Source: Patescibacteria group bacterium (GTDB lineage Bacteria > Patescibacteriota > JACPGU01). Taken from it: DNA of 64,000 bases. A program made the translations under genes and the position numbers. Location of the stretch: positions 24,530-88,529 of the forward strand of contig JBAYUK010000002.1 in assembly GCA_041675145.1 (NCBI GenBank). Reading direction: 5' to 3'. The notes beneath the pieces are model-generated. The model saw nothing but the letters and a program-made list of their open reading frames with translations. It searched no databases and had not been told where the DNA came from. Shown here one piece after another: positions 24,006 to 45,521 of the stretch (positions are counted from its first letter, which is position 1; each line of letters begins with the position of its first letter).

Positions 24006-24006
24006 A

Positions 24007-24034: not shown

Positions 24035-24040
24035 ATCTGT

Positions 24041-24070: not shown

Positions 24071-24097
24071 AGATAACGGTTCGCCCAGACGAGCCCT

Positions 24098-24499: not shown

Positions 24500-24515
24500 C
24501 AGATGGTCGTTACTG

Positions 24516-25535
24516 CTAAAAGCTAAAGAAAGGTGGGATAGTCCCTGCAGCCACTAAAACATTTATTACATTAAAGATTCCAAAGAAGATCACGACCAGC
24601 CCCGCTGTCTTGAAAAACACGCCTGACTGCGCCTTGGTGTGGACGCTAAGTGAACTGAAAGAAAGGAGAGCGAGGACCGGCAGAGTACCGAGCGCAAACG
24701 CCCCCATGATTATTGCTCCAGTCGCGAAACTACCCGTTGTTAGCACGTAGATCTGCATGGACTGCGTAAAGCCACAGGGTAAGAAAAAGGTTGCAATACC
24801 AACGAGGGTGGGAGTTAGGGTGTGGTTTAGATTTTTGAGTCCGTGCACATGCTTCCCAACAAAAGCTGGTAGTGTTGGCTGGAATCTCTTGGCCCACGGG
24901 AATATACCTAGAAGGTTTACACCGAGAACAAGAAGCACAAGTGCAACGAAAATACCCAAGGAGGCTACGATAGTCGGCCCAAGCTGGAATGCTGAACCCA
25001 GCGCGCCAATCGCACCCCCGAGGATAAGAAACGATGCAAGCCGGCCGATATGAAATAATACCTGCGGTCGTATCTTGTCGCCCTCTTTGGCAAAGTTAGC
25101 CGAGAGCGAGAGCACGAGGCCACCGACCACGGCCATACAGGTCGAAACTGAGGCGATCAGGCCAATCACAAAAGCCGTACCGGGCCCGACCTGCGCGGTG
25201 GTGACCAAATTCACTAGGCCCAGCTTTTGCAGAAGAATAAAAACGCCGATAAAACCAATTGCGAGCGGAACAGCCAGCCGAAAGTCCGACCAACGCACCG
25301 CATTCTTCTGCGACTTAAGAGAGAGCGTATAGCCATGCGGTCGCAAGACTTCGCTCAGGTCACGCGCAATCTGCTCAGGAGCTTGGTCGCCAAAATCACC
25401 ACGGACCACAACACGGTGATTCGCGAGCGATGCCTTCGCCGTTGTTATTGCCGGCACACCCATAAGCCCACTCTCGATGAGCGCCACGCAGGAGCGACAA
25501 TGCATACCATGGATGTGAAATGTATACGTCTTCAT
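24516..25535 (-). CDS. HMA-domain fused to DsbD/CcdA- or TauE-like permease
   Basis: N-terminal 'HIHGMHCRSCV' is an HMA metal-binding domain. It is followed by 6-8 transmembrane helices with 'STCMAV' and 'LPCGF' motifs. Confidence 0.6.
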   Translation of the reverse strand: MKTYTFHIHGMHCRSCVALIESGLMGVPAITTAKASLANHRVVVRGDFGDQAPEQIARDLSEVLRPHGYTLSLKSQKNAVRWSDFRLAVPLAIGFIGVFILLQKLGLVNLVTTAQVGPGTAFVIGLIASVSTCMAVVGGLVLSLSANFAKEGDKIRPQVLFHIGRLASFLILGGAIGALGSAFQLGPTIVASLGIFVALVLLVLGVNLLGIFPWAKRFQPTLPAFVGKHVHGLKNLNHTLTPTLVGIATFFLPCGFTQSMQIYVLTTGSFATGAIIMGAFALGTLPVLALLSFSSLSVHTKAQSGVFFKTAGLVVIFFGIFNVINVLVAAGTIPPFFSF

Positions 25536-25539
25536 ATAA

Positions 25540-27855
25540 TTAAAGCTCTTTTACTTTTAGTCGCAGCGAGTTGCCCACGACCGAAACACTGGATAAGGCC
25601 ATCGCTAACCCGGCAAAAACCGGATTGAGCAGCCAGCCGAAGATAGGGTAGAACAAGCCAGCCGCGAGCGGGATTCCCACAATATTATAGAAAAATGCCC
25701 AAAATAAATTTTGCTTAATCCCGCGCATCGTCATTTTCGAAAGTCGAATAGCCTTCACAAGCTTCGTGATGTCCCCGTGAAGCAGAGTAATGCCAGCGGT
25801 TTCGATAGCTACGTCCGTGCCAGTCGCCATTGCGATCCCAACGTCCGCCTGCGCCAGAGCCGGTGCGTCATTGACCCCATCACCAGCCATCACCACGCGC
25901 GTGCCTTTGGCCTGCAACTCTTTAATTAACTTCAATTTATCCTCCGGCAAAACTTGGGCAAACACTTTTGTTATCCCTGCCTGATCCGCAATAAAACGAG
26001 CGGTGTTTTGATCGTCTCCGGTCATCATAATGACGGTCAGTCCCATTTGCTTTAGCCTTTCAACTGACTCCTTTGCTTCCGGCTTGATTTTATCGGCCAC
26101 CATTGCGACCCCCAAAACTTCTTTTTTAGTGGCAAGAATCACTGGAGTTTTACCCTGTTTGGTTTCTAGCTCGATCATTTTCTCGTCGATTTTTAACCCC
26201 AATTCTTTGATCAACCGGACATTGCCCACCCAATATTGAGTTTTCTCGATCACGCCTGTTGCCCCTCGGCCTTTGAGCATCTCATATTTAGCAACCGGCA
26301 GCGGATTAATCTTTTTTTCTTTCGCGTACCGCATCGTTGCCTGAGCCACCGGATGATCAGAATGACTGTCCAGCGATGCGATGAGAGCAATCAAAGCTTT
26401 TTCAGATAATTCAGATAATGAACTAATCGAAACCAATTCCGGTTTTCCTTGAGTAATAGTGCCGGTTTTATCCACCACCACAGCATTCACCCGATAGAGC
26501 TTTTCCAGTGTCGCCGCGTCTTTGATCAAAATCCCTTCCTGGGCTCCGCGTCCCACTCCAACAATAATCGCAGTCGGCGTGGCCAGCCCCAGAGCACACG
26601 GACAAGCGATAATAAGAATACCAACAAAAGAAGTCAGACCATATGAAAATGCCTGGGCAAGCCCGAGAGACCCGGTGCCGACAACCAGCCATAGTAAAAG
26701 AGTGCCCAAAGACAAAACGATCACGATCGGCACAAAAACCGCCGATATTGTATCTGCCAAGGCCTGAATCGGCGCTCGGCTGCCCTGAGCCTCCTCAACC
26801 ATTTTGATAATCTGTGCCAAAAAAGTGTCGGACCCAACCTTTGTCGCAGTAAAAGTAAAGCTCCCCGTCGTATTGATTGTACCCGCTACAACACTATCCC
26901 CAACATTTTTTTCAACTGGCATTGGCTCACCACTCACCATCGCTTCGTCCACAAAAGAGTTGCCTTTACTTACTACTCCGTCCACTGGAATACGAGACCC
27001 TGGTTTAACCACAATAATATCGCCTTTTACTACCTGCTGAATTGGTATTTCAATCTCTTTGTTGCCGCGAAACACTAAAGCTGTTTTTGCCTGTAAGTTG
27101 AGAAGTCTTTCAATAGCGTCACCAGTTTTTAGTTTTGAACTCGCTTCTAGATATTTTCCGAGAGTAATAAAAGCTACCACCACGATCGTAATATCATAAT
27201 AAGTACTATCAACATCCAAATAAGGACGTAGGGTATCCTCAAAAGCTGAGACAGCAAAACTATACAAATAGGCCGCCAGCGTTCCCATACCAATCAAGGT
27301 ATCCATATTAGCTTTGCCGTATCTTAAAAATCTATAGAAGCCAAGCAGGTACGGCTTACCAACTACAAACAGAGTATAGGTGGCAAATATCGGCAATAGA
27401 TGATGAAAAAAATCTTTTATAAAAATACTCATCCCAGCGACCAGCTGTAATTGAGCAAGAATATCCCAACCCATAACAAAAATACTAAAAACCGCCAGTG
27501 GCATTACTGAGATGACTTTAAGCTTCATTTCATTTAGCTCAATTGTTTTTTCCTGTTTAGTTTGGTTTAGACCCAAATGGGCAGCGTGTTCACTAGCTGT
27601 CATGCCCATTGCGCTAGCACTAGACCCAGCCAAGTTTTTCTCTACTGGAAGCTGAAAGGTATAACCCAAAGGCTCAATTGACTTTGAGAGTTGGTGTGGG
27701 CTGTTCTTATTTTCATCAAACACAACCTTTGCTTTTTCGGTACCATAGTTCACCTCTGCCGCGGTTACACCAGCTTGTTTTTTTAGAACACTCTCAATGG
27801 TCCGAGCACATGATGCACAGTGCATACCACGGATTGGATAAGTGTGTTTAGTCAT
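25540..27855 (-). CDS. copA: copper-translocating P1B-type ATPase
   Basis: HMA domain '[12 protein letters not shown]', CPC motif '[11 protein letters not shown]', 'DKTGTIT', 'MTGDDQNTA' and '[10 protein letters not shown]'. The start is set at MTKHT and overlaps the csoR stop by TAAcATG. Confidence 0.9.
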
Positions 27856-27856
27856 G

Positions 27857-28132
27857 TTATTTTCTTTTGAGCTTATAAACTTTAAGGATTTCTGTTTTGG
27901 CCTTTTCGATTCTACCTGCCTTGAGCTGATCAACGATACAACCACTGAGGTGATTTTCCAGCAACAAATCCTCAACATTGGAAAGTCCCTGCTTCACAGC
28001 CGAGGTCTGTGTAATGACATCGATACAGTATGCATCTTGTACTATCATATCTTGTAGCCCTCGCACCTGCCCCTCAATGATCTTGAGGCGCCGCACTAAT
28101 TTTTTCTTATTTTCCGATTTGATATATTTCAT
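27857..28132 (-). CDS. csoR: CsoR/RcnR-family metal-sensing repressor
   Basis: '[36 protein letters not shown]' is the CsoR signature with Cys/His ligands. Confidence 0.85.
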
Positions 28133-35191: not shown

Positions 35192-38100
35192 TTAACTGTC
35201 TATTGAGTAAATACCAACACGAATATTAATACCTGATTCATCTACTTTTGTGGTATCTGTTCCTTGGTAGAAGTATTGTAACACTTCTTTGTATGTTTTG
35301 CCTTGGTTAATGAGGTCTCGCGCCCCTCGACCCGGCAAGCCCACTCCATGCCCTAAGAGAGGAAGTCCAGCTGATCCAGGGTCAGATACCGACGTGAGCC
35401 ACGGGTAGTCTGACTGTTTAAAGTTCCATACTTCAGAGGCTGCACGAGTACGACCATCCGACTGTGTGTAGTACGGGGTGATTACAGGCTTACCGTTATA
35501 TGTAACAATCTCGCCGGCCGTAGCGTCATCTCCTCGACCAATATTTACTGCTCGTTTAGTAAAATTGTACCCCTGGAAGATCTGGTCATCTCCATTACCA
35601 TTGCGACTGTTTTTAAGAGTTAGGAAATCGTCTTTATGGCGGCCACCTAACCGGTAGTGATACAGTGCGTAACTGCGTTGGATAATACTCGAGACTTTAA
35701 GATACTCAGCAGGAAACGTGTCGATAGACTCGGATACTCCTTTTAAGTAGTCTTCAATAAAGAGCTCATCGATTGCCCAGAGTTTCTTATGTACGGTAGA
35801 GTAGCGAATCTCCATCACTCCCTTGAATGCATTGTCGTTAAGATTTGGGTTCCAGGTTGGACGATCACTGTAGAGTGGAAGCGTAAAAATGGTGGCATCG
35901 TGAGTTGGAACAAAACGTACATAGTTTGCGCTCGTATATGTTTTACCTTGAAGAACTGTTGTGTATGTACCAGCAGAGTAGGAGACGGCTGCGGTGTCAT
36001 CTGCTACGCCAGTAGCAATAGTAGCAAGCGTTAGTCCGTCTACTATTTTAAAGTCTCCCGATCCAGTAACCTGGATACTCTTCCCGTCACTTGGAATGGG
36101 AGCAGGTGACACTACCTGAGGAACAGTAGGAGTAATTGGCGTCTGGGCAACGCTCGTGCCAGTAGTGTTTTGTGCTCCAGGCTGAGCAGCTCCTGACGTG
36201 ACGATAAACTGCCAATAGATACCAATATCTTTAAACCATGCCACACCATCACGAACTAACGTAAAGTACTCTTTATATGTGCTTTGGGAATTTGGTGCGG
36301 TAACGGTAAATGTAAATCGGCCATTTTGTCCTGGCGCAACACTGTCCTGATCTAGTTGAACACGGTTGCTGTTAGTAAACTGCGAGATTCTGTCGCGTGG
36401 ATTAGCCGTTGCAAGTCTCACCGGAGTTGCTCCGCCTTTCTGCCATGTAGTTGAACCAGTGTTTTTTACTTCAATCCAAACTTGTGTGGTGCTGCCTGGT
36501 GTCATAGTCGGGAAGGCACTTTGCGCAACAAATGCAAAGTCGTCAAAGGATGGCTTGATAGTAATATCCCAGTACATACCATTTACTCCGAAACGATCAA
36601 TACCCTCAGCTACTAGTCTAAAGTACTCACGATACACGCCATCTTTCTGGTCTGTGTTGAGTGGGATAATGAAAGTTGCTATTTCACCGGGAGCAACCGA
36701 GTTTTCTAAAAATCCAAGACGGTTTGGTGAAAGCCAGGCGGAAGTGGCAAAGATACTACTACGATCATTTGCATTGGTAGTTGAAAGATGCACTTTGCTC
36801 TTGTCCCAGGTAGCAGTACCAGTGTTTTTAAACTTTACCGACATGTTGTATGCGAGTCCCTTTGAGGTAGTTGGGTAGGGACTCTGCTCAGTTAGCTGTG
36901 CGTCATACGAGACAGTACTGGGAGTTGGAGCACGGGGCGGTGTCGGCATTGGAGTAAGAGACTGACCAGATCCTGGTGTAGGGCTTGGTACTGGTGTGAG
37001 TGGAGCAGGAGTTGGGGTAGGAGTCGGCACAACTACAGGAGTTGGAGTCACCGGGGAAGGGGTAGTATCGGCAGTAACCGTAATACTAACAGTCACCTCG
37101 AGTGGGTTGCTCGATACCAGGTTTTGATCTGATTTTATAGAAAATTTCTCTTGGTATTTACCAGGGTTTGTCGGTGGTGTAAATAAAAAGGCAATGCGTC
37201 CATTTGAGCCAGTTGGTACAGTACTACCATCTAAGGTTCCTGCGTTGCTTTTTGTAACCCAGTCACCTGCCGTAAAGTAGGCGCTATCTGCCTGGTTAGT
37301 AGTCACTAGTCGAATGTTTTCTGATCCATTCCAACTCGTTGACCCTATGTTTTTTACATCTACCCAGTACGATACGGGTGCTGATCCAGCCTTGACTGTC
37401 TGCTCAGGACTCTGTCCTACAATCTTAGCGCCATAAGCAGGCGTGGTAACTGTGACCCCGAACTGTACATGAGTTCCAGAAAGTATGGTGCCGTCCACAT
37501 AGAAATCTCCCTGGACTTGTTGCGACATATTACCCAGCGGCGCGGTCACTGCGAGGTTAAGTGTCCGTATTTCTCCTGCCTCAACGCTAGCGCCAAAGTC
37601 CTCTAACCCTACCGAAAGTCCTGCAGTATCTGAAGATCTAAACTCTAGCTTATGAGCACCAGCAGATAACAACGCTATGTTTCCACTATTTTTTAAGCTG
37701 ACGCGAAGATTCTTAGTCTCTCCGCCATTCATTTGTAAACTACCCTCAGATGATAACACCTGCATAGCATACTGACGCGCAGGGTAGGCAGCCAGCTTCT
37801 CGGCAACCTTAATTCTCACCATCTCCATTCTGCTGTAGAGGGTATTACCCGGACAGCTAGTTGGATTTAAGTCTTGGTGACCAACAATAGTTGGGATTAT
37901 CTTGTTAATAAGCTTGACGGTACCGGCAGGATCAATACGGTTTTTATATGCCAAATAGGCAACGAGGTCAGTGATTGCCTCGAACTGAGACTGTTCAACA
38001 TTTCTTACATTATAGTCTCCAATAACTGAGATCCCGATCGTACCAGGATTATACCCTGAAGCGTGTCCTGCTATTACACTGTTACCTCCAGAGCGACCTT

Positions 38101-38896
38101 CATAAATACCACCATTAAGGTCGACGACATAGTTATACCCAATGTCTCCCCAACCGTAAGTGACTGCATGACCATAATAAATATTGCGTACCATATCCTT
38201 TGGATCCACTCCGGTGATACGACTATCATCCGCTGCGGTATGGTGAATCACTATGGCTTTTACTTCACTGTACTCTGGTTTCCAGGTCATGTAGCTTGAG
38301 TTTGCTCCCCAGGAAGATCTGGAAGTTATCTGCGGTCCAAGACCGGCAGTATCTGCAGAAATGCGCGCTGGCATATCTGACTTCGGGGGAGTAAAGAGAA
38401 CGAAGTGAATTGCAAATTCTTTTCCTATTTCAGAGGCATCAAAAACTACTTTATATTGGAACTCGTTACTAGAGACAGCGCTTACAGTCTCTCCGATAGC
38501 ACGACTATCTTGAATACCGCGGCCATCTGGTGTATCTGAGTCAATTCTCTCCATCTCACGCCATACAAGGCTGTTGCCTGACCTTACAAATACATGGGCA
38601 CCACTTTCACGCGTCCATGAACCAACCATTCCCGTAAAACTGTGGTGGGTAGTTACTTTATTTGAAGTATAGCGTGCTGCACTCACTACAAAGCTATTAT
38701 CCACACCACTACTATGTTCATCTATTGTTATTGCTTGAGATACGATGTTAGCACTGTCCTCTAGGACTATATGTTTACTGATTTCTGCATCACTTGATGC
38801 ATGCACGGGAAACACGAAAATCTGAGCGCTTATAAAAAGCGCTAAGGCAAGGTATGAAATGGTTTTTTGTGTAATATACATGTATCTATTATACAT
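35192..38896 (-). CDS. 1234-aa secreted cell-wall hydrolase: Amidase_2 (PGRP) + 4× ~110-aa repeat modules + P/T linker + SpoIID/LytB domain
   Basis: Amidase_2 region 'VIHHTAADD...GDIGYNYVVD...HQDLNPTSCPG'. Four repeats of the W-rich module. SpoIID-like C-terminus 'YLKGVSE...VITPYYTQSDGRTRAASEVW...YPWLTSVSDP'. Confidence 0.8.
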   Translation of the reverse strand: MYNRYMYITQKTISYLALALFISAQIFVFPVHASSDAEISKHIVLEDSANIVSQAITIDEHSSGVDNSFVVSAARYTSNKVTTHHSFTGMVGSWTRESGAHVFVRSGNSLVWREMERIDSDTPDGRGIQDSRAIGETVSAVSSNEFQYKVVFDASEIGKEFAIHFVLFTPPKSDMPARISADTAGLGPQITSRSSWGANSSYMTWKPEYSEVKAIVIHHTAADDSRITGVDPKDMVRNIYYGHAVTYGWGDIGYNYVVDLNGGIYEGRSGGNSVIAGHASGYNPGTIGISVIGDYNVRNVEQSQFEAITDLVAYLAYKNRIDPAGTVKLINKIIPTIVGHQDLNPTSCPGNTLYSRMEMVRIKVAEKLAAYPARQYAMQVLSSEGSLQMNGGETKNLRVSLKNSGNIALLSAGAHKLEFRSSDTAGLSVGLEDFGASVEAGEIRTLNLAVTAPLGNMSQQVQGDFYVDGTILSGTHVQFGVTVTTPAYGAKIVGQSPEQTVKAGSAPVSYWVDVKNIGSTSWNGSENIRLVTTNQADSAYFTAGDWVTKSNAGTLDGSTVPTGSNGRIAFLFTPPTNPGKYQEKFSIKSDQNLVSSNPLEVTVSITVTADTTPSPVTPTPVVVPTPTPTPAPLTPVPSPTPGSGQSLTPMPTPPRAPTPSTVSYDAQLTEQSPYPTTSKGLAYNMSVKFKNTGTATWDKSKVHLSTTNANDRSSIFATSAWLSPNRLGFLENSVAPGEIATFIIPLNTDQKDGVYREYFRLVAEGIDRFGVNGMYWDITIKPSFDDFAFVAQSAFPTMTPGSTTQVWIEVKNTGSTTWQKGGATPVRLATANPRDRISQFTNSNRVQLDQDSVAPGQNGRFTFTVTAPNSQSTYKEYFTLVRDGVAWFKDIGIYWQFIVTSGAAQPGAQNTTGTSVAQTPITPTVPQVVSPAPIPSDGKSIQVTGSGDFKIVDGLTLATIATGVADDTAAVSYSAGTYTTVLQGKTYTSANYVRFVPTHDATIFTLPLYSDRPTWNPNLNDNAFKGVMEIRYSTVHKKLWAIDELFIEDYLKGVSESIDTFPAEYLKVSSIIQRSYALYHYRLGGRHKDDFLTLKNSRNGNGDDQIFQGYNFTKRAVNIGRGDDATAGEIVTYNGKPVITPYYTQSDGRTRAASEVWNFKQSDYPWLTSVSDPGSAGLPLLGHGVGLPGRGARDLINQGKTYKEVLQYFYQGTDTTKVDESGINIRVGIYSIDS

Positions 38897-39061: not shown

Positions 39062-39508
39062 ATGGCTCGCAGTGAAATTGAAAAATTCTTCTCAGACGAC
39101 GACAACTTCTTTTCTCGTCGCAATACCCAACTTCTTACTGGTGATGAGTGGGATACTGACACTACTGAACTCGAAGAAGGACAGCTCTCTATTGATATGA
39201 TCGAAACCAATAGCGACATCATCGTCAAAGCACCGATTGCTGGTGTAAAAAAAGACGATGTTGAAGTGGCAGTTACTGAAGATATGATTACTATCCGCGG
39301 TAAGCGTGAACATGAGTTTGAAAAGAATAACGATGACTTCCATATCCAGGAGTGTTACTGGGGTGCATTTTCTCGTTCTCAGTCTTTCCCTACTTCAGTT
39401 CTTGCAGATAAGGCAGAAGCGGTTCTCAAAGACGGTGTGTTAACTGTTCGTGTTCCAAAATCAAGCAAGGCACCAAAAGGAAAGTTGCTCAAAATAAAAA
39501 CAGACTAG
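39062..39508 (+). CDS. Hsp20/alpha-crystallin small heat-shock protein
   Basis: An AAGGAGGG ribosome-binding site. The alpha-crystallin domain includes 'DMIETNSDIIVKAPIAGVKKDDVEVAV...ITIRGKRE'. Confidence 0.85.
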   Translation: MARSEIEKFFSDDDNFFSRRNTQLLTGDEWDTDTTELEEGQLSIDMIETNSDIIVKAPIAGVKKDDVEVAVTEDMITIRGKREHEFEKNNDDFHIQECYWGAFSRSQSFPTSVLADKAEAVLKDGVLTVRVPKSSKAPKGKLLKIKTD

Positions 39509-39514
39509 TTTTTC

Positions 39515-40855
39515 ATGGTAGATAAAAAAGTCATTATTGGTGCTATTGGATTCCTCGTGATCATATTGATCGCGGGGTTTTTTGTGTTTCGTGGTAGCAA
39601 CACTCCTTCTCCAACACCAAACCCTACCGACAACACCAAGCCTACTCCAAAACCAAGTGACACCGACGAAGTTAACCTCACTATGTGGGGAGTATTTGAT
39701 GAGAACGCAGTTATGCAACCGTTAATAGATAAGTACCGAGAGAAACATTCGAATGTGAAGATTACTTATGTAAAAAAACAATACAGCGACTACGAGTCAC
39801 TCCTGGTTGATGCTATTGCGTCCGAGAAAGGACCAGACTTACTTGCAATCCATAATGACTGGTTACCAAAGCATGAAGCCAAACTTGCTCCTGCTCCAGA
39901 TACTATTATAAGTCTCGATCAGTTTAATAGTGAGTTTGTACCATCTGCCTACCAAGACTTTACTGACAACAACAAAATTTTTGCTCTTCCGTTATACACC
40001 GACAATCTCGCACTGTTTTATAACAAGCAACTACTTAACAAAGCAGAGATATATAACGCACCTACTACCTGGGATGAAGTAATTTCATACGCAAAGCTTA
40101 TGACTAAAACTGTTCCTGGAGATCCAACCAAGATAGCTCAAGCAGGTATTGCTATGGGAACTGCTAGTAACATTAACCGTCCAAGTGATATCTTGCTTGC
40201 TTTAATGTATCAGACCCAAACTCCCCTTATATCTGACGACAAGAGAACCTATAACTTCAACCAGTTCAGAAAAGGACCAGACGGTAATCCTGAATACCCA
40301 GGAACAGAGTCACTCTCTTTTTATACTGCCTTTGCTACCGCAGGCAAGCAGTCATATACTTGGGGCAAAGACCTCGACAACTCACTCACTGCCTTTGCAA
40401 ACGGCAAGGTTGGTATGATGATTGGCTACAACTATATGATCCCGCAACTCGAGAGACTCAATCCGAATATGTCTTATGGAATAGTGAAATTCCCACAGAT
40501 TAAACTCGCTCCTGAGCCTATTACTATCAGCAACTACTGGGGATGGGGAGTATCTCGTACTTCAGCAAACAAGGATGCTGCTTGGGAGTTTCTGCGCTAC
40601 CTATCAAATGACCAGGCACTTTCTAGCTACCTCTCTGCTACAGGTAGAATTAGCCCTAAGAAGATCCGTTCTGGAGGCTCTGTTTTTGAACAACAAGCTC
40701 AGTATGCGAAAACCATCTATAAAGGAAACGCTGAGCAATTTGATACCATATTCTCAGATATGATTAACGATGTCATTCAGTACAACCAGCCTCCTCAAAT
40801 CGCAATCGATACCGCGGCTCGCAAGGCTAATGAGATGATCAAAAAGTTCTACTAA
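39515..40855 (+). CDS. extracellular solute-binding protein (ABC family 1), orphan
   Basis: Transmembrane anchor and a P/T-rich linker, then the SBP_bac_1 fold with 'KGPDLLAIHNDWL' and 'LPLYTDNLALFYNK'. No permease or ATPase is adjacent. Confidence 0.75.
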   Translation: MVDKKVIIGAIGFLVIILIAGFFVFRGSNTPSPTPNPTDNTKPTPKPSDTDEVNLTMWGVFDENAVMQPLIDKYREKHSNVKITYVKKQYSDYESLLVDAIASEKGPDLLAIHNDWLPKHEAKLAPAPDTIISLDQFNSEFVPSAYQDFTDNNKIFALPLYTDNLALFYNKQLLNKAEIYNAPTTWDEVISYAKLMTKTVPGDPTKIAQAGIAMGTASNINRPSDILLALMYQTQTPLISDDKRTYNFNQFRKGPDGNPEYPGTESLSFYTAFATAGKQSYTWGKDLDNSLTAFANGKVGMMIGYNYMIPQLERLNPNMSYGIVKFPQIKLAPEPITISNYWGWGVSRTSANKDAAWEFLRYLSNDQALSSYLSATGRISPKKIRSGGSVFEQQAQYAKTIYKGNAEQFDTIFSDMINDVIQYNQPPQIAIDTAARKANEMIKKFY

Positions 40856-40879
40856 AAAAAGACCTCGTAACCAGTTGTT

Positions 40880-41302
40880 ATGAAAAAACTTCTTATATCC
40901 TTCCTACTTACCTCAACCCTCTTTGTGGGTAATTTTGCGTATGTCTCCCCGGTATTCGCAGTAGACCCAGCACCTACTGCACCAGCTCCGATACCAGCTC
41001 CTACCGACGGTTCGAAGCCAGAGAACTTGCAAGCAACCTCTTTTGCCCAAACAAGTGATCCTCAGGCACCAAAATTTGGAGAATTTATTCAGGTCTTTTA
41101 CAGATACCTTTCAATAATTACGCTCATAGCAGCCCTTCTCTCAGGCATCATTGGCTCATATATGTATATGACTAGCTCAGGCAACCCCGAAAAGATTGGA
41201 AAGGCACGGGAAATAATAGTGAATTCAATTATTGCTATAATCGTAGTAGCCTTTGCGTATGCATTTTTCAATATTCTTTCTCCTAATATAATAGGAAAAT
41301 GA
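40880..41302 (+). CDS. TrbC/VirB2-like pilin paralog 1
   Basis: Signal peptide followed by two transmembrane helices around 'MTSSGNPEKIGKAREIIVNSIIAIIVV'. Confidence 0.6.
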   Translation: MKKLLISFLLTSTLFVGNFAYVSPVFAVDPAPTAPAPIPAPTDGSKPENLQATSFAQTSDPQAPKFGEFIQVFYRYLSIITLIAALLSGIIGSYMYMTSSGNPEKIGKAREIIVNSIIAIIVVAFAYAFFNILSPNIIGK

Positions 41303-41862
41303 AAAAGAATTTTCTAAAAGTTTTTTTTATTTCTGCACTCTTCGCTATTTCCACAGTTACTGTGTTCTCTCTTCCTATGCATGTATATGCGGCTAATGAT
41401 GTGTATGAATACGTGGGACCTACTAAAATCTCTTGTAGTAGTACAGATCCATTTAGTGTTTTTAAGGAGCTTACTGGTGGAGCCACTCCTATTACCGAAG
41501 TGGATAAAGCCCTTAACGGCATTGCCTGTCTTGGGCTTAGTTTGGTTAACTTCTTGTCCGAAATGGCAGTACTGGTCGCTGCGATATATATCACGATATC
41601 TGGGATTAAGTACCAGACATCATCTGGAGACCCAAAGAAACAGCAGGCAGCAATTTCTGCCTTACAAGCAGCCCTTATAGGGTTTGCTCTCTCGTTGTCT
41701 TTTGTTGCTATCATCAACTACGCCCTAAACTTTATTGAGTTCGATACCTTAACAGGACAGTTTAAGAGTGTGAATGTGGAAGCCACAAAACCTGCCGATA
41801 CGCCTGCGCCAGCAGCACCGGGTACGCCTGATACACCAGCACCGCAACCAACCAGAAGCTAG
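41299..41862 (+). CDS. TrbC/VirB2-like pilin paralog 2 (P/A-rich tail)
   Basis: Same architecture as paralog 1, with 'KYQTSSGDPKKQQAAISALQAALIGFAL'. It overlaps paralog 1 by ATGA. Confidence 0.6.
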   Translation: MKKNFLKVFFISALFAISTVTVFSLPMHVYAANDVYEYVGPTKISCSSTDPFSVFKELTGGATPITEVDKALNGIACLGLSLVNFLSEMAVLVAAIYITISGIKYQTSSGDPKKQQAAISALQAALIGFALSLSFVAIINYALNFIEFDTLTGQFKSVNVEATKPADTPAPAAPGTPDTPAPQPTRS

Positions 41863-42060
41863 CTAGTATGTGTACGGTTCAGGTTTATTGCATTTATCCC
41901 CAGGTTTTGCCTTGCTATCCACAGAAATTTGGCTATAATGCACATAAGTGTGGATTTTGTCACCTTAATAAATTCGTTCATTCGTTTGTGTATCGCAATT
42001 TTTTTGAAAAATATAAATAATACAAAGAGGCTCACGTCTCGTAAATCCTCAGGAGGAATC

Positions 42061-42426
42061 ATGCTTAAAAATATAAAAAATCATTTAGCTGTTGTTGGTT
42101 CACTAGCAACTTTGACTGTTGGTAATGTGGCAGCAGCCGCAACAACAGAGATCGAGACTGGCCTTACTAAGACCGGAAACCTCGAGACTATTATTCAAAG
42201 TGTTATGAATACATTTATGGCTATAGTAGGCTTAGCTACAATTGTATACCTTATATACGGCGGATTTATGTACCTAACTTCAGGTGGAAACGCAGAGAAA
42301 GTCACTACAGCCAAGAACACCATTATTTATGCTATTGTTGGTATCATCATTATTGGTGCCGCATACGCAATTCGCGGATTTGTACTTGACCGCCTAAGTA
42401 TCACTATACCTACAGGGGGAATCTAA
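42061..42426 (+). CDS. TrbC/VirB2-like pilin paralog 3
   Basis: An AGGAGG ribosome-binding site. Contains 'MYLTSGGNAEKVTTAKNTIIYAIVGIIIIGAAYA'. I set the start at Met 42061 rather than the ORF-track 41929. Confidence 0.6.
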   Translation: MLKNIKNHLAVVGSLATLTVGNVAAAATTEIETGLTKTGNLETIIQSVMNTFMAIVGLATIVYLIYGGFMYLTSGGNAEKVTTAKNTIIYAIVGIIIIGAAYAIRGFVLDRLSITIPTGGI

Positions 42427-42449
42427 TTAATCCCTGTCGCTCTCATCAT

Positions 42450-42476
42450 AAAACCCCGCATGTGCGGGGTTTTATG
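42450..42476. terminator. bidirectional terminator
   Basis: aaaaccccgc-atgt-gcggggtttt. Confidence 0.7.
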
Positions 42477-42495
42477 ATACTTGTCGTTCTTTAGA

Positions 42496-42753
42496 TTACT
42501 TAGCAGAAACCATCTTTGCGAGTGCAGACTTTTTACGAGCTGCTGTATTTGGATGAATCACATGATTCTTTGCGTTCTTGTCGAGTACCTTAAAAGCACC
42601 AGGAAGAAGTGCTGCAGCTGCAGTCTTGTCTGTTTTAACGGCAAGAAGGAAGGCCTTAATGGTCTTTTTCATGGTGTCTTTGCGAAGATTGTTTGCTGCT
42701 TTGCGTCGTTTTGTGCGACGAACATCTTTAATCGAGGCTTTGAGATTTGGCAT
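42496..42753 (-). CDS. rpsT: 30S ribosomal protein S20
   Basis: 'MPNLKASIKDVRRTKRRKAAN...' is the bS20 N-terminus. Confidence 0.9.
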   Translation of the reverse strand: MPNLKASIKDVRRTKRRKAANNLRKDTMKKTIKAFLLAVKTDKTAAAALLPGAFKVLDKNAKNHVIHPNTAARKKSALAKMVSAK

Positions 42754-42810: not shown

Positions 42811-44007
42811 TCAAGTATAGTACTTGGCAACCATCTTTGCGACCTGGGCGCCGATGTTTACCGGCTCTCCTATAGAAGGGTAATGGTGCATATCTATATA
42901 TGGCAGGGAGTTGAGCTCCAGTATGGCACACTCCTGCTCTTTCCAGGAAATCGCGATATCTTTAGCGAGCAGGTCGATACCTACCAGGTAGATCCCAAAG
43001 ATTGTTGCTACTCTTCTAAAAAGTTCAATGTTATCTGGGTGAACCTGGGGTGTGACCTCCTCTAGGTCTGCTCCGATATCTAAAATTACCTTTTCCTGAA
43101 GATATACCGGTTCTCCTTCTTGTGGTACTGTTTCTACTGTGTATCCCTTTTGCTGAAGGAGCTTTTCACTTACGTCGTCAAATGTGAGGTGATAGAGCAC
43201 AAAACTCTGGTCTCCGGCTGGCCCTCGCCTTGGGTCAGCGTTTTTGTGATCTATGAGCTCTTGAATGGTATGTACCCCATCTCCCACCACATGAGCGGGT
43301 ATCCGACGCACGACAGCTACGAAGTCCTGGTCTATAACATTAGCCCTATATACATACGGGCTATTGATGTACCGCTCCACCATAAAGTACGGGGTATACT
43401 GCGCTACTTTCAAAATCGCCTCTTGTAGCTGGGTTCTGTTTTGAATATTGGTTGTAATGTGCTGACTCATAGAGCCGGTAACCGGCTTCACAATTACCGG
43501 GTATCCAAGGTCTTGCTCTACATATGTTTCAACCCGCTTTTTTTGTAAAACACTAAACGCCCTGCCACGAGCTACCGGTAGCCCATTTTTTTCTAGTATT
43601 CTTTTAACAAAAAGTTTGTCGTCTATCCTCTCGGCTCGCGTGCTTTGCATAAACTCAGCGCGGGGGAGCCCTTCAAAAGCATATGACCTACCACCATTAT
43701 CTAGTATGAACTGGTTATTAAGCCCGTATGGGGTCGTTATGGCGCGAAAGGTCATGCCGAGTGGCAATGCCTCACGCAAGAACACTTTCGTGCGTAGCGG
43801 GAATCCTGGGTGGTTTAAATCCTTAGTTGTTTTTACTGCACCAACTCTTAGAAAGAACCGGTCAATGGAACTTGCGAGTGCGTACCTAACCTTTGAGGGT
43901 ATAGATATATAGCGAAAGGGGGTTAATACATAAAAAAGATCAGCAATCCATTGCTGATAGTGGTTCGTTTGAATCGGGCCGCAGTGAGGGCAAGGCTCTT
44001 GTGCCAT
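42811..44007 (-). CDS. standalone cyanophycin-synthetase-like ATP-grasp (G-domain) protein
   Basis: 'GYPVIVKPVTGSMSQH', 'MVERYINSPYVYRANVIDQDFVAVVRRIPAHVVGDGVHTIQELIDHKNADPRRG' and 'ELNSLPYIDMHHYPSIGEPVNIG' align with the CphA N-terminal half. No Mur-ligase-like M-domain is present. Confidence 0.65.
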   Translation of the reverse strand: MAQEPCPHCGPIQTNHYQQWIADLFYVLTPFRYISIPSKVRYALASSIDRFFLRVGAVKTTKDLNHPGFPLRTKVFLREALPLGMTFRAITTPYGLNNQFILDNGGRSYAFEGLPRAEFMQSTRAERIDDKLFVKRILEKNGLPVARGRAFSVLQKKRVETYVEQDLGYPVIVKPVTGSMSQHITTNIQNRTQLQEAILKVAQYTPYFMVERYINSPYVYRANVIDQDFVAVVRRIPAHVVGDGVHTIQELIDHKNADPRRGPAGDQSFVLYHLTFDDVSEKLLQQKGYTVETVPQEGEPVYLQEKVILDIGADLEEVTPQVHPDNIELFRRVATIFGIYLVGIDLLAKDIAISWKEQECAILELNSLPYIDMHHYPSIGEPVNIGAQVAKMVAKYYT

Positions 44008-44011
44008 ACTC

Positions 44012-44818
44012 TTACTCTCCTTCTTTTGTATCTTTTGCAGGCGGAAGCTCTTCTACCACAATCTCTTCTTGATGCTCACCTTTATGTTTAATACGAACCG
44101 TAACTTCGCGTGCTTTTTCGTGGTTTACGTAGAACTGCTGAGCAATACTAAAGAGCGTTGTGGTAACGAGGTAGAAACCAAGACCAGCTGGGAATGAGCG
44201 TGCAATGAAGTACGTCATTACGGGAACAATTAAGCTCATTTGCTTGTTCATCATCTGTTCCATAGTAGGTTTACTACCCGCTACTTGTGGTTGCGCCTGT
44301 GCATTTACTGTCATAATAGTTAGGCCATACTGGGTAAGGCCTGCCAGTACTGGGATAACGATAAGCTCTGGCTTTGCCAAGTCAAGCAACCCAAAGAACT
44401 GGGTATTAAGCTGGGCTGGCGCATGAATAAAAGAGTACACATGCGCTGGGTTAATAGCCTTAAGTCCTTCTCCGAGTGTACGATAAAGAGCGATAAAAAC
44501 TGGGAGCTGGATGAGTATCGGTAAGCAGCTCGACCATGGGTTTACCTGGTACTGTTTGTAAAAGGCGACTTGTGCTTTGGCAAGCTCTTGAGGGTCTCCT
44601 TTGTATTGGTCCTTGAGCTTATTAAGCTCCGGCATGATCTTTTTCATCTTGCGCTGTGAACGAGCAGCTTTGAGCCCTAATGGCAAAATGAGTAACCGGA
44701 TAATAACCGTCATAATCACAATAGCTATTCCAAGGTCATGACCTGGAATAGTGTTATACAGAAACAAAAGAAAGTTGAGCAACGGGTTGTAGAGCAAATC
44801 TTGCCAAATGGAAAACAT
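44012..44818 (-). CDS. yidC: membrane protein insertase YidC (short form)
   Basis: 'YKQYQVNPWSSCLPILIQLPVFIALY' is the YidC/Oxa1 core. Confidence 0.9.
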   Translation of the reverse strand: MFSIWQDLLYNPLLNFLLFLYNTIPGHDLGIAIVIMTVIIRLLILPLGLKAARSQRKMKKIMPELNKLKDQYKGDPQELAKAQVAFYKQYQVNPWSSCLPILIQLPVFIALYRTLGEGLKAINPAHVYSFIHAPAQLNTQFFGLLDLAKPELIVIPVLAGLTQYGLTIMTVNAQAQPQVAGSKPTMEQMMNKQMSLIVPVMTYFIARSFPAGLGFYLVTTTLFSIAQQFYVNHEKAREVTVRIKHKGEHQEEIVVEELPPAKDTKEGE

Positions 44819-44827
44819 AGGATTGTA

Positions 44828-45112
44828 TTATATATGTTTGTGAGGCACCTCGTCTATGCCACCTTTTGTCCATGGGTTACAACGCAGTATACGCCATAGG
44901 GTGAGTAGCGACCCGTACAGTACCCCGTGTTTGTGTATGGCCTGTTTTCCATATTCAGAACAGGTTGGAACGTAGGGACAGTACCCATGAGGGAACAGGA
45001 ACTTGAGCGGTCCGTGGTCTGGAGAAAGCGTCTTCTGGTACAACGATATAACTCCCGTAAGTACTATTCGAGGGATCCTACTTATACCCAACAGAGCTTG
45101 TTTTGGTGTCAT
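44828..45112 (-). CDS. yidD: membrane protein insertion efficiency factor YidD
   Basis: 'ISLYQKTLSPDHG...CPYVPTCSEYGKQAI' is the YidD motif. Confidence 0.85.
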   Translation of the reverse strand: MTPKQALLGISRIPRIVLTGVISLYQKTLSPDHGPLKFLFPHGYCPYVPTCSEYGKQAIHKHGVLYGSLLTLWRILRCNPWTKGGIDEVPHKHI

Positions 45113-45122
45113 AGAGAGTACC

Positions 45123-45521
45123 TTACTGCAATATCCCAGCTTTTGTAGCTAGGTACATGAATTCCTTCTCGAGTGCCTGGTAGTCAGCAACAATTGCTTC
45201 AGGTTTTACTATAAGCACCGACCATAACCCTATTTTACACTGTGGCCTGGCAAGACGAATAATCTCATTTAGCTGTCTTTTTGTCTTACTACGGTCCACC
45301 GACCTTTTGGCGGTCTTCACACTAATAACGATCCCAAAACGAGCAGGGGTGCCTGGGATCTTGCCAGTAGTAGTTTTCAGGGTAAAGTACGGGCCAAAAA
45401 CTGCCTTTCCTCCCTTCATAACCCGGTCAAATTCGCTGTCTTTAGTGAGACTCAAAGAAAAATGCCGAGTTACTGGCATTTTTTTCGGGTTCTTGGTTGT
45501 ACCTTGAAGCGGTTGCTCCAT
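45123..45521 (-). CDS. rnpA: ribonuclease P protein component
   Basis: Basic protein with 'FGIVISVKTAKRSVDRSKTKRQLNE'. It follows rpmH after a 2-nt gap. Confidence 0.85.
   Translation of the reverse strand: MEQPLQGTTKNPKKMPVTRHFSLSLTKDSEFDRVMKGGKAVFGPYFTLKTTTGKIPGTPARFGIVISVKTAKRSVDRSKTKRQLNEIIRLARPQCKIGLWSVLIVKPEAIVADYQALEKEFMYLATKAGILQ

What the first reader, a model, noticed from the sequence alone, without database searches (positions are those of the whole stretch)
42811..44007. Standalone ATP-grasp (G-domain) resembling cyanophycin synthetase, lacking the Mur-ligase-like M-domain
The 398-aa protein aligns block by block with the N-terminal half of CphA. Matching stretches include VIVKPxxG, the RIPAHVxGxGxxTIxELIxxxNxxPxRGxxH stretch, and the C-terminal ELNxxPxIxMHxxPSxGxPxNIG. 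It stops where CphA continues into the domain that adds arginine. An isolated G-domain could make a poly-aspartate-like polymer or ligate an amino acid to a different primer. It lies between rpsT and yidC in the core origin-proximal region.
Basis: partly seen in the sequence, partly recalled or inferred. Interest (0 to 1): 0.55.

Follow-up and report, generated by a model that had tools for sequence, protein, structure and literature searches.

The report
Stand-alone CphA-like ATP-grasp ligase, CPR-specific
This gene encodes an intact, conserved ATP-dependent ligase found in the tiny 'candidate phyla radiation' bacteria that shares its catalytic core with the cyanophycin-making enzyme but has lost every residue that recognises cyanophycin or aspartate, so it almost certainly joins different, still unknown molecules.

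Summary
The ORF is real: 42811..44007, minus strand, 398 aa, the last gene of an rnpA-yidD-yidC string, just upstream of rpsT and close to dnaA/dnaN. Residues ~67-398 are a confident ATP-grasp fold. The nearest relatives by sequence and structure are the G domains of cyanophycin synthetases CphA1 and CphA2, then the GshF ATP-grasp module. RimK, LysX and Ddl types are far weaker.

It is not a truncated cphA. It belongs to a family of ~400-aa proteins conserved over full length, and every named member is from Patescibacteria. The family has its own N-terminal CxxCG...H extension. No CphA N domain, M domain or cyanophycinase was found in the window or in 27 related loci.

The ATP, Mg2+ and acyl-phosphate residues are invariant. 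The CphA1 residues that bind incoming aspartate (N394, S396, G456, R458, H267) and the cyanophycin primer (GPST, E215) are all replaced. R458 is Asp/Glu in 216 of 222 members.

The poly-aspartate or cyanophycin-like idea is therefore not supported. The best reading is an active carboxylate-amine ligase with new substrates. Neighbours are lineage-specific and mostly membrane or envelope proteins. Substrates remain unknown.

The parts
42811..44007 (-). Complete ORF 'X', 398 aa plus stop: stand-alone CphA-G-like ATP-grasp ligase. It is identical to NCBI WC045_02760, annotated as a hypothetical protein of a Patescibacteria group bacterium.
   Evidence: ORF list. The identical protein P0001 sits on a 366-kb contig. 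AF2 model has pLDDT 92.4 and pTM 0.91.
43810..44007 (-). Family-specific N-terminal extension, residues 1-~66. It has an unstructured CxxCG...H segment, then two helices (16-28, 38-55) and a short strand. It has no counterpart in CphA and no Pfam or PDB match.
   Evidence: Pfam, NCBIfam and PDB matches start at residue ~97-130. Secondary structure. The alignment to CphA1 begins at the GPST motif, which corresponds to residues 70-73.
43960..43992 (-). Cys6-x2-Cys9-Gly10-x5-His16 motif, a candidate metal (Zn) knuckle.
   Evidence: C6 and C9 are present in 180 of 180 members that have an N-terminus, and H16 in 184 of 186. Metal binding is inferred and was not tested.
42814..43809 (-). ATP-grasp domain, residues ~67-398. 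It is equivalent to the CphA1 G domain (Gcore, Glid, G-omega).
   Evidence: TIGR02068 at 5.4e-68. CphA1 7wac at 5e-43. Foldseek gives 7wae 1.3e-30, GshF 3ln6 2e-26, CphA2 7ta5 3e-26 and Ddl about 1e-11.
43459..43482 (-). Phosphate-binding lid loop, residues 176-183 (VTGSMSQH). It corresponds to the CphA1 P-loopG (LDGNHGR-G). The catalytic His267 position is hydrophobic here (M180). His183 is a family-specific, nearly invariant residue.
   Evidence: Residue mapping. Position 180 is L/V/M/I/F and H183 is present in 208 of 222 members.
43345..43347 (-). Arg221, equivalent to CphA1 Arg309, which binds the substrate carboxylate and the acyl-phosphate or tetrahedral intermediate.
   Evidence: Present in 222 of 222 family members and 57 of 57 CphA1 sequences. 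The role is taken from PMC9427784.
43066..43101 (-). Remodelled 'large loop' of G-omega, residues 303-314 (LQEKVILDIGAD). It replaces the CphA1 loop LRATANLSTGG that positions aspartate.
   Evidence: N394 becomes I/F and S396 becomes D/K/R. CphA1 has N and S in 57 of 57 sequences. The loop shows covarying K306/D310 and D306/(K/R)310 types.
42883..42918 (-). ELNSLPYIDMHH, residues 364-375. Mg2+ ligands E364 and N366 are kept. G456 becomes Y370, R458 becomes D372, and His375 is family-specific.
   Evidence: E364 in 220 and N366 in 221 of 222 members. Position 372 is D139/E77 with no Arg, where CphA1 has R in 57 of 57.
42973..42975 (-). Asp345, equivalent to the CphA1 Mg2+ ligand Asp431.
   Evidence: Present in 222 of 222 members. 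Role taken.
44012..45521 (-). Upstream genes on the same strand: rnpA (45123..45521), yidD (44828..45112) and yidC (44012..44818). The yidC stop lies 4 nt before the start of X.
   Evidence: Pfam hits PF00825, PF01809 and PF02096. Gaps. The same order occurs in L001, L096 and L099.
42496..42753 (-). rpsT (ribosomal protein S20), 57 nt downstream of X. A promoter-like site lies at 42814-42786, and a 15-bp-stem bidirectional terminator-like hairpin lies at 42445-42478.
   Evidence: Pfam PF01649. Pattern scan, which gives consensus matches only.
39515..42426 (+). Convergent neighbouring cluster. It holds a solute-binding protein (39515..40855) and three VirB2/TrbC-like 'T4SS_pilin' genes (40880..41302, 41299..41862, 41929..42426). 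This is a recurrent neighbour of X, and a functional link is not shown.
   Evidence: Pfam PF01547 and PF18895. The pilin HMM hits only these three genes in the whole 64-kb window. Pilin or VirB4-like genes lie within 7 kb of X in 16 of 37 loci.

Best explanation
X is a functional, stand-alone member of the CphA-G/GshF clade of ATP-grasp carboxylate-amine ligases. It represents a distinct family seen so far only in Patescibacteria.

Mechanism, by homology to CphA1:
1. ATP binds between the core and the lid (K131, K174, E211), with two Mg2+ ions on D345, E364 and N366.
2. A substrate carboxylate held by R221 is phosphorylated to an acyl-phosphate.
3. An amine then attacks it. The amine is bound in a pocket made by the remodelled large loop (303-314) and the 369-375 loop.

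Shown here:
- The fold.
- The clade placement.
- Conservation of the catalytic set.
- Replacement of all cyanophycin-primer and aspartate-recognition residues.
- Full-length conservation as a ~400-aa family.
- Absence of cyanophycin partner genes nearby.

Inferred:
- The enzyme makes an amide bond between substrates other than cyanophycin and Asp.
- The polarity at the two tested subsite positions is inverted relative to CphA1. The primer site gains Arg72 at the Ser of the GPST crevice, and the acidic E215 position becomes variable. The nucleophile site changes Arg458 to Asp/Glu372.
- This suggests an anionic acyl donor and a cationic amine, or one lacking an alpha-carboxylate.
- The N-terminal Cys2-His element may bind a metal or a partner.
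- Given the recurrent membrane and envelope neighbours, the substrate is probably envelope- or membrane-associated.
For: Clade placement:
- NCBIfam gives cyanophycin synthetase 230 bits, then GshAB 155, Ngg 109, and LysX, RimK and Ddl at 42 bits or less.
- PDB phmmer gives CphA1 5e-43, CphA2 3e-38, GshF 3e-28 and Ddl 3e-4.
- The AF2 model has pLDDT 92.4. Foldseek gives CphA1 1e-30, GshF 2e-26 and Ddl 1e-11.

Real family:
- 273 clusters at E<1e-5, about 400 aa, 98-100% coverage. All named members are Patescibacteria.
- About 115 single-domain representatives at 50% identity appear in the top 150 alone.
- Family members score at least 268 bits against the family HMM. CphA1 G domains score 194-243 bits.

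Catalytic set:
- K131, K174, R221, D345 and P369 are present in 222 of 222 members. E211, E364, N366 and H374 are present in 220-221 of 222.

Substrate sites changed:
- N394, S396, G456 and R458 are invariant in 57 of 57 CphA1 sequences. In the family they are I/F, D/K/R, Y/C/F and D/E.
- H267 becomes hydrophobic.
- GPST becomes xLR(T/S), and E215 becomes variable.
- The roles of these residues come from mutagenesis and structures in PMC9427784 and PMC10273328.

No cyanophycin partner genes:
- No CphA N or M domain and no cyanophycinase was found in the window or in 27 CPR loci.

Coupling to neighbours:
- yidC is 4 nt upstream in the window.
- In relatives, the VirB4-like gene sits at -4 to +27 nt.
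- GtrA sits at +4 to +62 nt.
- A methyltransferase-like gene with a hydrophobic N-terminus overlaps the 3' end in 6 loci.
- The partner c27 is adjacent in 4 loci and fused in 2 proteins.
Against: - No substrate is identified and nothing was tested biochemically.
- The charge-inversion argument rests on alignment positions, not on inspected coordinates or a ligand complex. D310 covaries with K306 in an i,i+4 pattern, so it may be structural rather than substrate-binding.
- The loss of His267, which is catalytically important in CphA1, could mean reduced or different catalysis. GshF also lacks this His.
- The neighbours differ between lineages. Part of the recurrent proximity to the gyrA-SBP-pilin block may be inherited synteny rather than functional coupling.
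- Only up to 10 kb of flank per locus, and 64 kb of this genome, could be examined. Distant partner genes, including cyanophycinase, cannot be excluded.
Confidence: 0.68

Rival explanations
1. First reader's reading. X is an isolated CphA G domain that polymerises aspartate into a poly-Asp-like polymer, or extends a cyanophycin-like primer.
For: The closest known relatives are CphA1 and CphA2 G domains. The catalytic residues and the G-omega subdomain are retained. Some sources already name homologs 'cyanophycin synthetase'.
Against: - All residues that bind Asp (N394, S396, R458; R323 only partly kept as R/Q) are replaced family-wide. So are all residues that bind the beta-Asp-Arg primer (E215/D212, GPST). 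R458 becomes acidic, which would repel the Asp alpha-carboxylate.
- There is no N domain to tether a polymer.
- No cyanophycinase, M domain or adjacent dipeptidase was found in 28 loci. In contrast, cphB abuts cphA in 4 of 4 cyanobacterial control loci.
Confidence: 0.06
2. X modifies a component of the CPR type-IV-secretion-like apparatus. For example, it could ligate an amino acid or amine onto a VirB2-like pilin or another apparatus protein, in the way RimK or TTL modify proteins.
For: - VirB2-like pilin genes or a VirB4/TrwB-like ATPase lie within 7 kb of X in 16 of 37 loci, in several different arrangements.
- X overlaps the VirB4-like gene by 4 nt in L003 and L106.
- Pilin genes occur nowhere else in the 64-kb window.
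- CphA-type G domains act on a polymer's C-terminal backbone carboxylate.
Against: - 21 of 37 loci show no such neighbour.
- Part of the pattern fits an inherited gyrA-SBP-pilin-X synteny block.
- The pilin C-terminal tails are not conserved.
- X has no signal peptide or transmembrane segment. From general knowledge, VirB2-type pilin maturation occurs on the outer face of the membrane.
- No fusion to any T4SS component was seen.
Confidence: 0.13
3. X is a cell-envelope precursor ligase. For example, it could add a (di)amino acid to a carboxylate of the peptidoglycan stem peptide, or to a lipid-linked glycopolymer intermediate.
For: - The immediate partners are membrane or envelope proteins: a GtrA-like gene directly downstream in 7 loci, a methyltransferase-like gene with a hydrophobic N-terminus in 6, and yidC or ftsH upstream.
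- Bac_transf and DedA/VTT genes are nearby in L003.
- The substitutions that suggest an anionic acyl donor and a cationic amine would suit a nucleotide- or lipid-linked peptide plus a diamino acid. This is inference.
Against: - No mur, ddl or fem genes are adjacent in any locus.
- X has no similarity to known cross-bridge ligases beyond the ATP-grasp fold.
- The envelope flavour of the neighbours is qualitative, and no background rate was computed.
Confidence: 0.13
4. X is a RimK, GshB, LysX or Ddl-type ATP-grasp enzyme mislabelled by superficial similarity. Alternatively, it is a decaying fragment of cphA.
For: Pfam's only above-threshold hit is Dala_Dala_lig_C at 35.7 bits, covering residues 139-219.
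Against: - RimK, LysX and Ddl NCBIfam models score 34-42 bits against cut-offs of 143-276. CphA scores 230 bits.
- Foldseek Ddl hits are about 19 orders of magnitude weaker than CphA.
- The family is conserved over its full length with an intact catalytic set in 222 proteins, which a pseudogene would not show.
Confidence: 0.02

Closest known systems
Cyanophycin synthetase 1 (CphA1), G domain (e.g. PDB 7WAC/7WAE, 7LG5; NCBIfam TIGR02068)
   Same: - Best sequence and fold match.
- Same ATP-grasp core, lid and G-omega subdomains.
- Same ATP, Mg2+ and acyl-phosphate residues (K220, K261, E300, R309, H409, D431, E450, N452, H460).
- X ends at the G/M boundary.
- It presumably uses the same two-step acyl-phosphate chemistry.
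   Different: - No N domain and no M domain.
- Its own Cys2-His N-terminal extension.
- The Asp-binding residues (N394, S396, G456, R458) and catalytic H267 are replaced.
- The primer-binding residues (GPST, E215) are replaced.
- No cyanophycinase linkage.
- Seen so far only in Patescibacteria.
Cyanophycin synthetase 2 (CphA2; PDB 7TA5, 8FXH/8FXI)
   Same: [quoted passage not shown] Sequence similarity is strong (3e-38).
   Different: CphA2 keeps the N domain and a truncated M domain. It also keeps the large-loop N393 and S395 and the D212 primer contact, all of which X lacks.
GshF/GshAB bifunctional glutathione synthetase, C-terminal ATP-grasp module (PDB 3LN6, 3LN7; NF002688)
   Same: - Second-closest clade (155 bits; Foldseek 2e-26).
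- It adds an amino acid to a peptide's C-terminal backbone carboxylate.
- Like X, it lacks the CphA1 His267 and Arg458.
   Different: GshF is fused to a glutamate-cysteine ligase domain. It has Tyr/Phe at the 267 position and Met/Tyr at the 458 position. X has aliphatic residues at 267 and Asp/Glu at 458.
N-acetylglutaminylglutamine synthetase (Ngg; TIGR03103)
   Same: Third-best NCBIfam match (109 bits), covering residues 97-374. It is a peptide-forming ATP-grasp enzyme of the same clade.
   Different: Ngg is fused to a GNAT domain. X scores far below the cut-off (109 against 569 bits), and no asnO-type partner gene is nearby.
RimK / LysX / Ddl-type ATP-grasp ligases
   Same: ATP-grasp superfamily, with carboxylate-amine ligation through an acyl-phosphate.
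   Different: Only the ATP-binding half matches, at 34-42 bits. These enzymes lack the ~80-residue G-omega insertion shared by X, CphA and GshF.

Membership tests
ATP-grasp superfamily | ATP-grasp fold with the conserved ATP-binding lysines and the acidic/Asn Mg2+ ligands | tested here: met
   Eight Pfam ATP-grasp models hit residues ~124-239. The AF2 model has pLDDT 92.4. Foldseek returned 503 matches at E<=1e-3; all 50 best listed are ATP-grasp enzymes. K131, K174 and D345 are present in 222 of 222 members, and E364 and N366 in 220-221.
Cyanophycin synthetase CphA1 (TIGR02068) | Three-domain N-G-M architecture of about 870 aa that reaches the curated score cut-off | tested here: not met
   The protein is 398 aa. 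It scores 229.8 bits against a cut-off of 850, and the match covers only profile positions 209-470 of 862. tblastn with CphA1 N and M domains finds nothing in the window or 27 CPR loci (E>=0.017).
Cyanophycin synthetase CphA1 (TIGR02068) | G-domain fold with G-omega and the catalytic residues K220, K261, E300, R309, D431, E450, N452 | tested here: met
   All seven are invariant or nearly so in both groups.
Cyanophycin synthetase CphA1 (TIGR02068) | Aspartate-recognition residues N394, S396, R458 (plus R323) and catalytic His267 | tested here: not met
   In 57 CphA1 sequences these are N57, S57, R57 and H50. In the family the same positions are I/F, D/K/R, D/E (no Arg in 222) and L/V/M/I. R323 is kept as R139/Q60.
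Cyanophycin synthetase CphA1 / CphA2 | Primer (beta-Asp-Arg) contacts: acidic E215/D212 and the GPST/P162-T163 crevice | tested here: not met
   The acidic residue is present in 57 of 57 CphA1 sequences but is variable in the family (E7, Q6, N6, L6...). GPST is present in 55-57 of 57 CphA1 sequences, against xLR(T/S) in the family.
Cyanophycin metabolism gene set | Cyanophycinase (cphB/cphE) or isoaspartyl dipeptidase in the same genome, often adjacent | tested here: inconclusive
   No cyanophycinase homolog was found in the 64-kb window or in 27 CPR loci with up to 10 kb of flank. cphB is adjacent to cphA in 4 of 4 cyanobacterial control loci. Isoaspartyl dipeptidase was not searched for. The rest of the genome could not be read.
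GshF ATP-grasp module (NF002688) | Fusion to an N-terminal glutamate-cysteine ligase domain; P-loop Tyr/Phe; Met/Tyr at the CphA1-R458 position | tested here: not met
   X scores 155 bits against a cut-off of 425, and the match covers only profile positions 487-750. There is no GCL domain. The GshF residues are as stated in PMC9427784, against the family's aliphatic and D/E residues.
RimK / LysX family (TIGR00768, TIGR02144) | Reaches the curated family score over the full ATP-grasp domain | tested here: not met
   36.3 bits (cut-off 143.4) and 42.1 bits (cut-off 275.6). Only residues 126-239 match.
D-Ala-D-Ala ligase (TIGR01205, NF002378) | Reaches the curated family score; Ddl-type N-terminal and C-terminal domains | tested here: not met
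   33-37 bits against cut-offs of 243-262. Pfam PF07478 passes its domain cut-off but covers only 84 of 204 profile positions. Foldseek TM is about 0.38.
Graspetide (microviridin-type) ATP-grasp ligases reported in CPR | MdnB/MdnC-like ligase next to a precursor-peptide gene | tested here: inconclusive
   This is a different ATP-grasp lineage (PMC8939145). X's best matches are CphA and GshF. No conserved small ORF adjoins X across loci, but ORFs shorter than 60 aa were not examined.

The most novel reading that the evidence does not exclude
X is the catalytic core of a previously unrecognised, Patescibacteria-specific modification system acting at the cell envelope. It would be a soluble, metal-knuckle-bearing ATP-grasp ligase that docks onto small lineage-specific partners, several of them predicted membrane proteins (GtrA-like protein, the methyltransferase-like mt26, the unknown-fold c27). 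It would attach a cationic amine or amino acid to an anionic carboxylate on a component of the T4SS-like pilus apparatus or another surface structure used in the epibiotic lifestyle.
Probability: 0.15. Interest if true: 0.7.

Novelty: new variant of a known kind. Interest (0 to 1): 0.45.

Why it matters
Patescibacteria have tiny genomes with very few biosynthetic enzymes. An ATP-consuming ligase kept at full length across many of their lineages, often inside core housekeeping gene strings, probably does something important for their biology.

There is also an annotation consequence. Several databases already label these ~400-aa proteins 'cyanophycin synthetase'. A recent preprint infers cyanophycin synthesis in Saccharimonadia from such annotations while finding no cyanophycinase. 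I did not check whether those genes belong to this family. If they do, the residue analysis here argues that the inference would be wrong.

For enzymology, the family is a natural experiment. A CphA/GshF-type catalytic core is retained while both substrate subsites are rebuilt, which is useful for understanding and engineering specificity in this clade.

Tried and rejected
1. **Metagenome scan with an alignment of the family-specific N-terminal region.** I replaced it with a C-terminal alignment, which returned 32 loci.

2. **GTDB genome scan with the full alignment.** Canonical cphA genes swamped it, and only 8 of 80 loci were the CPR family. The cphA loci were reused as the comparison set and as the cphB positive control.

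3. **Long multidomain hits in the exhaustive search (553-2393 aa).** They first looked like informative fusions. They are tandem ATP-grasp proteins whose scores are summed. Per module they score 75-186 bits, below CphA1 at 194-243 bits, so they were rejected as closer relatives.

4. **The fused or adjacent partner c27.** It was pursued as a Rosetta stone. It has no Pfam match, no PDB sequence match, and no Foldseek match (best E 0.18) with an AF2 model of pLDDT 78. It is absent from the window. It gave no functional clue for this gene.

5. **Conserved pilin C-termini as a possible ligation site.** None were found.

6. **PADLOC defence models.** No hit.

7. **Literature searches.** I searched for CPR or Patescibacteria ATP-grasp and cyanophycin-like enzymes. 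Nothing describes this family.

8. **A first site-conservation table was off by one residue.** hmmalign --trim caused this. It was recomputed correctly.

9. **Model coordinates are not accessible.** The position of the Cys2-His element relative to the active site could not be measured.
Full report
**1. The observation**

The ORF 42811..44007 on the minus strand encodes 398 aa. An identical protein is in public data as a hypothetical protein of a 'Patescibacteria group bacterium' on a 366-kb contig.

It is the last gene of a same-strand string. The order is rnpA (45123..45521), yidD (44828..45112), yidC (44012..44818) and then X, which starts 4 nt after the yidC stop. rpsT follows 57 nt downstream (42496..42753). 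dnaA, dnaN and a dciA-like gene lie just beyond. The cumulative GC skew has its minimum at 46-48 kb, which fits an origin-proximal position. The stated location and the quoted motifs are correct.

**2. What it resembles**

Sequence profiles rank as follows:
- Cyanophycin synthetase first: TIGR02068, E 5.4e-68, 230 bits, query 126-393 against profile positions 209-470 of 862.
- The GshF ATP-grasp module next, at 155 bits.
- N-acetylglutaminylglutamine synthetase, at 109 bits.
- LysX, RimK and Ddl models reach only 34-42 bits.

Against solved structures, the order is CphA1 (7wac, 5e-43), CphA2 (7ta5, 3e-38), GshF (3ln6, 3e-28) and Ddl (3e-4).

An AlphaFold2 model built on 34 family sequences is confident, with pLDDT 92.4 and pTM 0.91. 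Foldseek against the PDB gives CphA1 7wae at E 1.3e-30 (TM 0.72), GshF at 2e-26, CphA2 at 3e-26 and Ddl near 1e-11.

That condition is not met.

**3. Not a truncated cphA, but a family of its own**

- A word-indexed search found 273 clusters at 90% identity with E<1e-5. They are almost all 360-440 aa and cover 98-100% of the query. Wherever a name is given, they come from Patescibacteria: Microgenomates, Parcubacteria/Paceibacterota, Falkow-, Uhr- and Doudnabacteria. Saccharibacteria members turned up in the genome scan.
- An exhaustive profile search of 1.84 billion representatives put about 115 single-domain proteins of ~400 aa in the top 150.
- Family members score at least 268 bits against the family HMM. 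57 genuine CphA1 G domains score 194-243 bits.
- The alignment to CphA1 starts at the CphA1 'GPST' motif, which corresponds to residues 70-73. The CphA N domain has no counterpart.
- Residues 1-~66 are instead a family-specific extension with a C6-x2-C9-G-x5-H16 motif. The Cys residues are present in 180 of 180 members and the His in 184 of 186. Two helices follow.
- tblastn with CphA1 N and M domains and with cyanophycinase finds nothing in the window or in 27 CPR loci (E>=0.017). cphB abuts cphA in 4 of 4 cyanobacterial control loci.

**4. Catalytic core kept, both substrate sites rebuilt**

I used the functional map of TeCphA1 (PMC9427784) and of StCphA2 (PMC10273328). I compared 64 and then 222 family proteins with 57 CphA1 sequences.

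Invariant or nearly invariant in both groups (CphA1 residue = X residue):
- K220 = K131
- K261 = K174
- E300 = E211
- R309 = R221. This residue holds the substrate carboxylate and the acyl-phosphate. It is present in 222 of 222 members.
- H409 = H323
- D431 = D345
- E450 = E364
- N452 = N366
- H460 = H374

Replaced in the family:
- The P-loop His267 becomes L/V/M/I. A new, nearly invariant His183 appears three residues later.
- The large-loop sequence RATANLSTGG becomes QEKVILD(L/I)GA or QKD(S/P)FL(K/R)LGG. N394 becomes I/F and S396 becomes D/K/R.
- G456 becomes Y/C/F.
- R458, which binds the alpha-carboxylate of the incoming Asp, is Asp or Glu in 216 of 222 members and never Arg.
- On the primer side, the acidic E215/D212 (57 of 57 in CphA1) is variable.
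- GPST becomes xLR(T/S), with Arg72 in 201 of 222 members.

PMC9427784 notes that His267, Glu215 and Arg458 are exactly the features that distinguish CphA1 from GshF, which has Tyr/Phe, Leu and Met/Tyr at those positions. The CPR family matches neither, so it is a third specificity type.

Positions 306 and 310 covary between the two main loop types (K/D versus D/K-R). Positions 370 and 372 covary with them (Y-D versus C-E). The 306-310 pair therefore looks like an intraloop salt bridge, and I do not count D310 as a substrate contact.

A third loop type, SQKTSRGCGG, occurs in a Paceibacterota subgroup that still keeps the D372-type residue.

**5. Genomic context**

I examined 37 loci: the window, 8 from genome scans, 17 from a metagenome scan and 11 by exact-protein look-up. 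The immediate neighbours are lineage-specific.

- (A) rnpA-yidD-yidC-X-rpsT, followed convergently by three or so VirB2/TrbC-like 'T4SS_pilin' genes, a solute-binding protein and HSP20. Seen in the window, L001, L096 and L099.
- (B) DUF5663, an unknown gene, a VirB4/TrwB-like ATPase, X, a GtrA-like gene, then dnaX. X overlaps or nearly abuts the ATPase gene (-4 to +27 nt). Seen in L003/L106, L107-L109 and L119. L010 is a variant.
- (C) ftsH then X. Seen in L088/89, L091 and L103/105. ftsH lies 2-3 kb upstream in L092 and L094.
- (D) X followed by a ~190-aa SAM-methyltransferase-like gene (mt26) with a hydrophobic N-terminus, overlapping or within 6 nt of X's 3' end. Seen in L004, L006, L007, L118, L120 and L123. 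The last three also have pilin, SBP and gyrA genes within 4 kb.
- (E) X convergent with c27, an unannotated 166-aa gene. Seen in L008, L009, L017 and L116, and 3 kb away in L117.

Two family members, P0171 and P0183, carry c27 as a C-terminal fusion (E 1e-17 to 1e-22). The c27 family has at least 681 clusters, mostly from Paceibacterota. It has no Pfam match, no PDB match and no fold match, and it is absent from the window.

T4SS-like genes lie within 7 kb of X in 16 of 37 loci. In the 64-kb window the pilin HMM hits only the three genes beside X. However, the recurrent gyrA-SBP-pilin-X order may be partly inherited synteny, and the pilin C-termini show no conserved ligation site.

Taken together, the neighbours are mostly membrane or envelope proteins, which hints at where the enzyme works. 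They do not name the substrate.

**6. Mechanism proposed**

Shown:
- An intact ATP-grasp ligase active site of the CphA/GshF type.

Inferred by homology:
- ATP-dependent phosphorylation of a carboxylate held by R221.
- Attack by an amine positioned by the large loop and the PYIDMHH loop.

Inferred from substitutions:
- The acyl donor is not cyanophycin and the amine is not aspartate.
- At the tested positions the polarity of both subsites is inverted relative to CphA1. This favours an anionic donor and a cationic amine, or one lacking an alpha-carboxylate.

The Cys2-His element is a candidate Zn knuckle or partner-docking element. I could not access the coordinates to see where it sits.

**7. 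Comparison with known systems and novelty**

X works like a CphA G domain or the GshF C-terminal module. It fails the membership tests for CphA1, CphA2, GshF, RimK/LysX and Ddl (see the table).

No paper in the searchable library describes it. Sources label it 'hypothetical', 'D-alanine-D-alanine ligase-like' or, misleadingly, 'cyanophycin synthetase'.

I rate it a new variant of a known kind. It is a new ATP-grasp ligase family, seen so far only in Patescibacteria, with a new architecture and a new predicted specificity. Interest is moderate at 0.45. It is conserved in a poorly understood radiation and corrects a likely annotation error, but no function is established.

Noticed in passing
window 39062-42426 (+): A compact cluster of HSP20, a solute-binding protein (SBP_bac_1) and three tandem VirB2/TrbC-like 'T4SS_pilin' (PF18895) genes. 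It is convergent with rpsT and X and ends at a 15-bp-stem hairpin (42445-42478). The same SBP-pilin block recurs next to gyrA in other Patescibacteria loci (L002, L118, L123).
   Followed up: partly
P0135, P0152, P0169, P0170 (Magnetococcales), P0199, P0200, P0217, P0244 and others: Giant proteins (640-2393 aa) with two or three tandem CphA/GshF-like ATP-grasp modules. They often end in an acylphosphatase domain. Some also carry LPG_synthase_C or MmgE/PrpD domains. This looks like an assembly-line-style multi-ligase architecture. An acylphosphatase fused to enzymes that make acyl-phosphates is curious.
   Followed up: partly
L008 1149-1649, L009 11276-11776, L017 2146-2649, L116 6001-6501; fused in P0171 and P0183: c27 is a large family (at least 681 clusters) of ~166-aa Paceibacterota proteins. 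It has many invariant His, Glu and Arg residues (QYHxRVFxDGEIRGHxExTPE..P..H) and no detectable fold or sequence relative. It is adjacent to or fused with the ATP-grasp family in one subgroup.
   Followed up: yes
L004, L006, L007, L118, L120, L123 (immediately downstream of X): A ~190-aa class-I SAM-methyltransferase-like protein with an N-terminal hydrophobic helix. Its gene overlaps or abuts the 3' end of the ATP-grasp gene, which suggests translational coupling. It is absent from the window.
   Followed up: partly
window 23163-27978: A locally GC-rich segment (0.52 against ~0.44). It holds an HMA-DsbD_2 membrane protein (24516-25535) and a CopA-type heavy-metal P-type ATPase (25540-27978), next to a Bro-N domain gene (23163-24005). 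It may be an acquired metal-resistance islet.
   Followed up: partly
window 35192-38896 (-): A 1234-aa secreted-looking protein that combines an Amidase_2 (N-acetylmuramoyl-L-alanine amidase) domain, repeated Ig-like domains and a SpoIID domain. It is a very large peptidoglycan hydrolase, conserved in the syntenic relative L001.
   Followed up: no
L002 9251-13111 (-): The gyrA gene next to the homolog is interrupted by an intein with a LAGLIDADG homing-endonuclease domain (precomputed Pfam annotation).
   Followed up: no
names; bioRxiv 10.64898/2026.09.16.751625: JGI and NCBI label several ~400-aa family members 'cyanophycin synthetase'. A 2026 preprint reports 'cyanophycin synthetase' in 5 of 21 Saccharimonadia MAGs that lack cyanophycinase. 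Those genes may be this family, which would mean a mis-annotation. I did not check their sequences.
   Followed up: no
L122 8352-9635 (-): In one lineage the homolog is convergent with a FolC-like Mur-ligase-family gene inside a folate/one-carbon cluster (SHMT, FolD, PurH). This is a single occurrence. It is not a CphA M domain.
   Followed up: no
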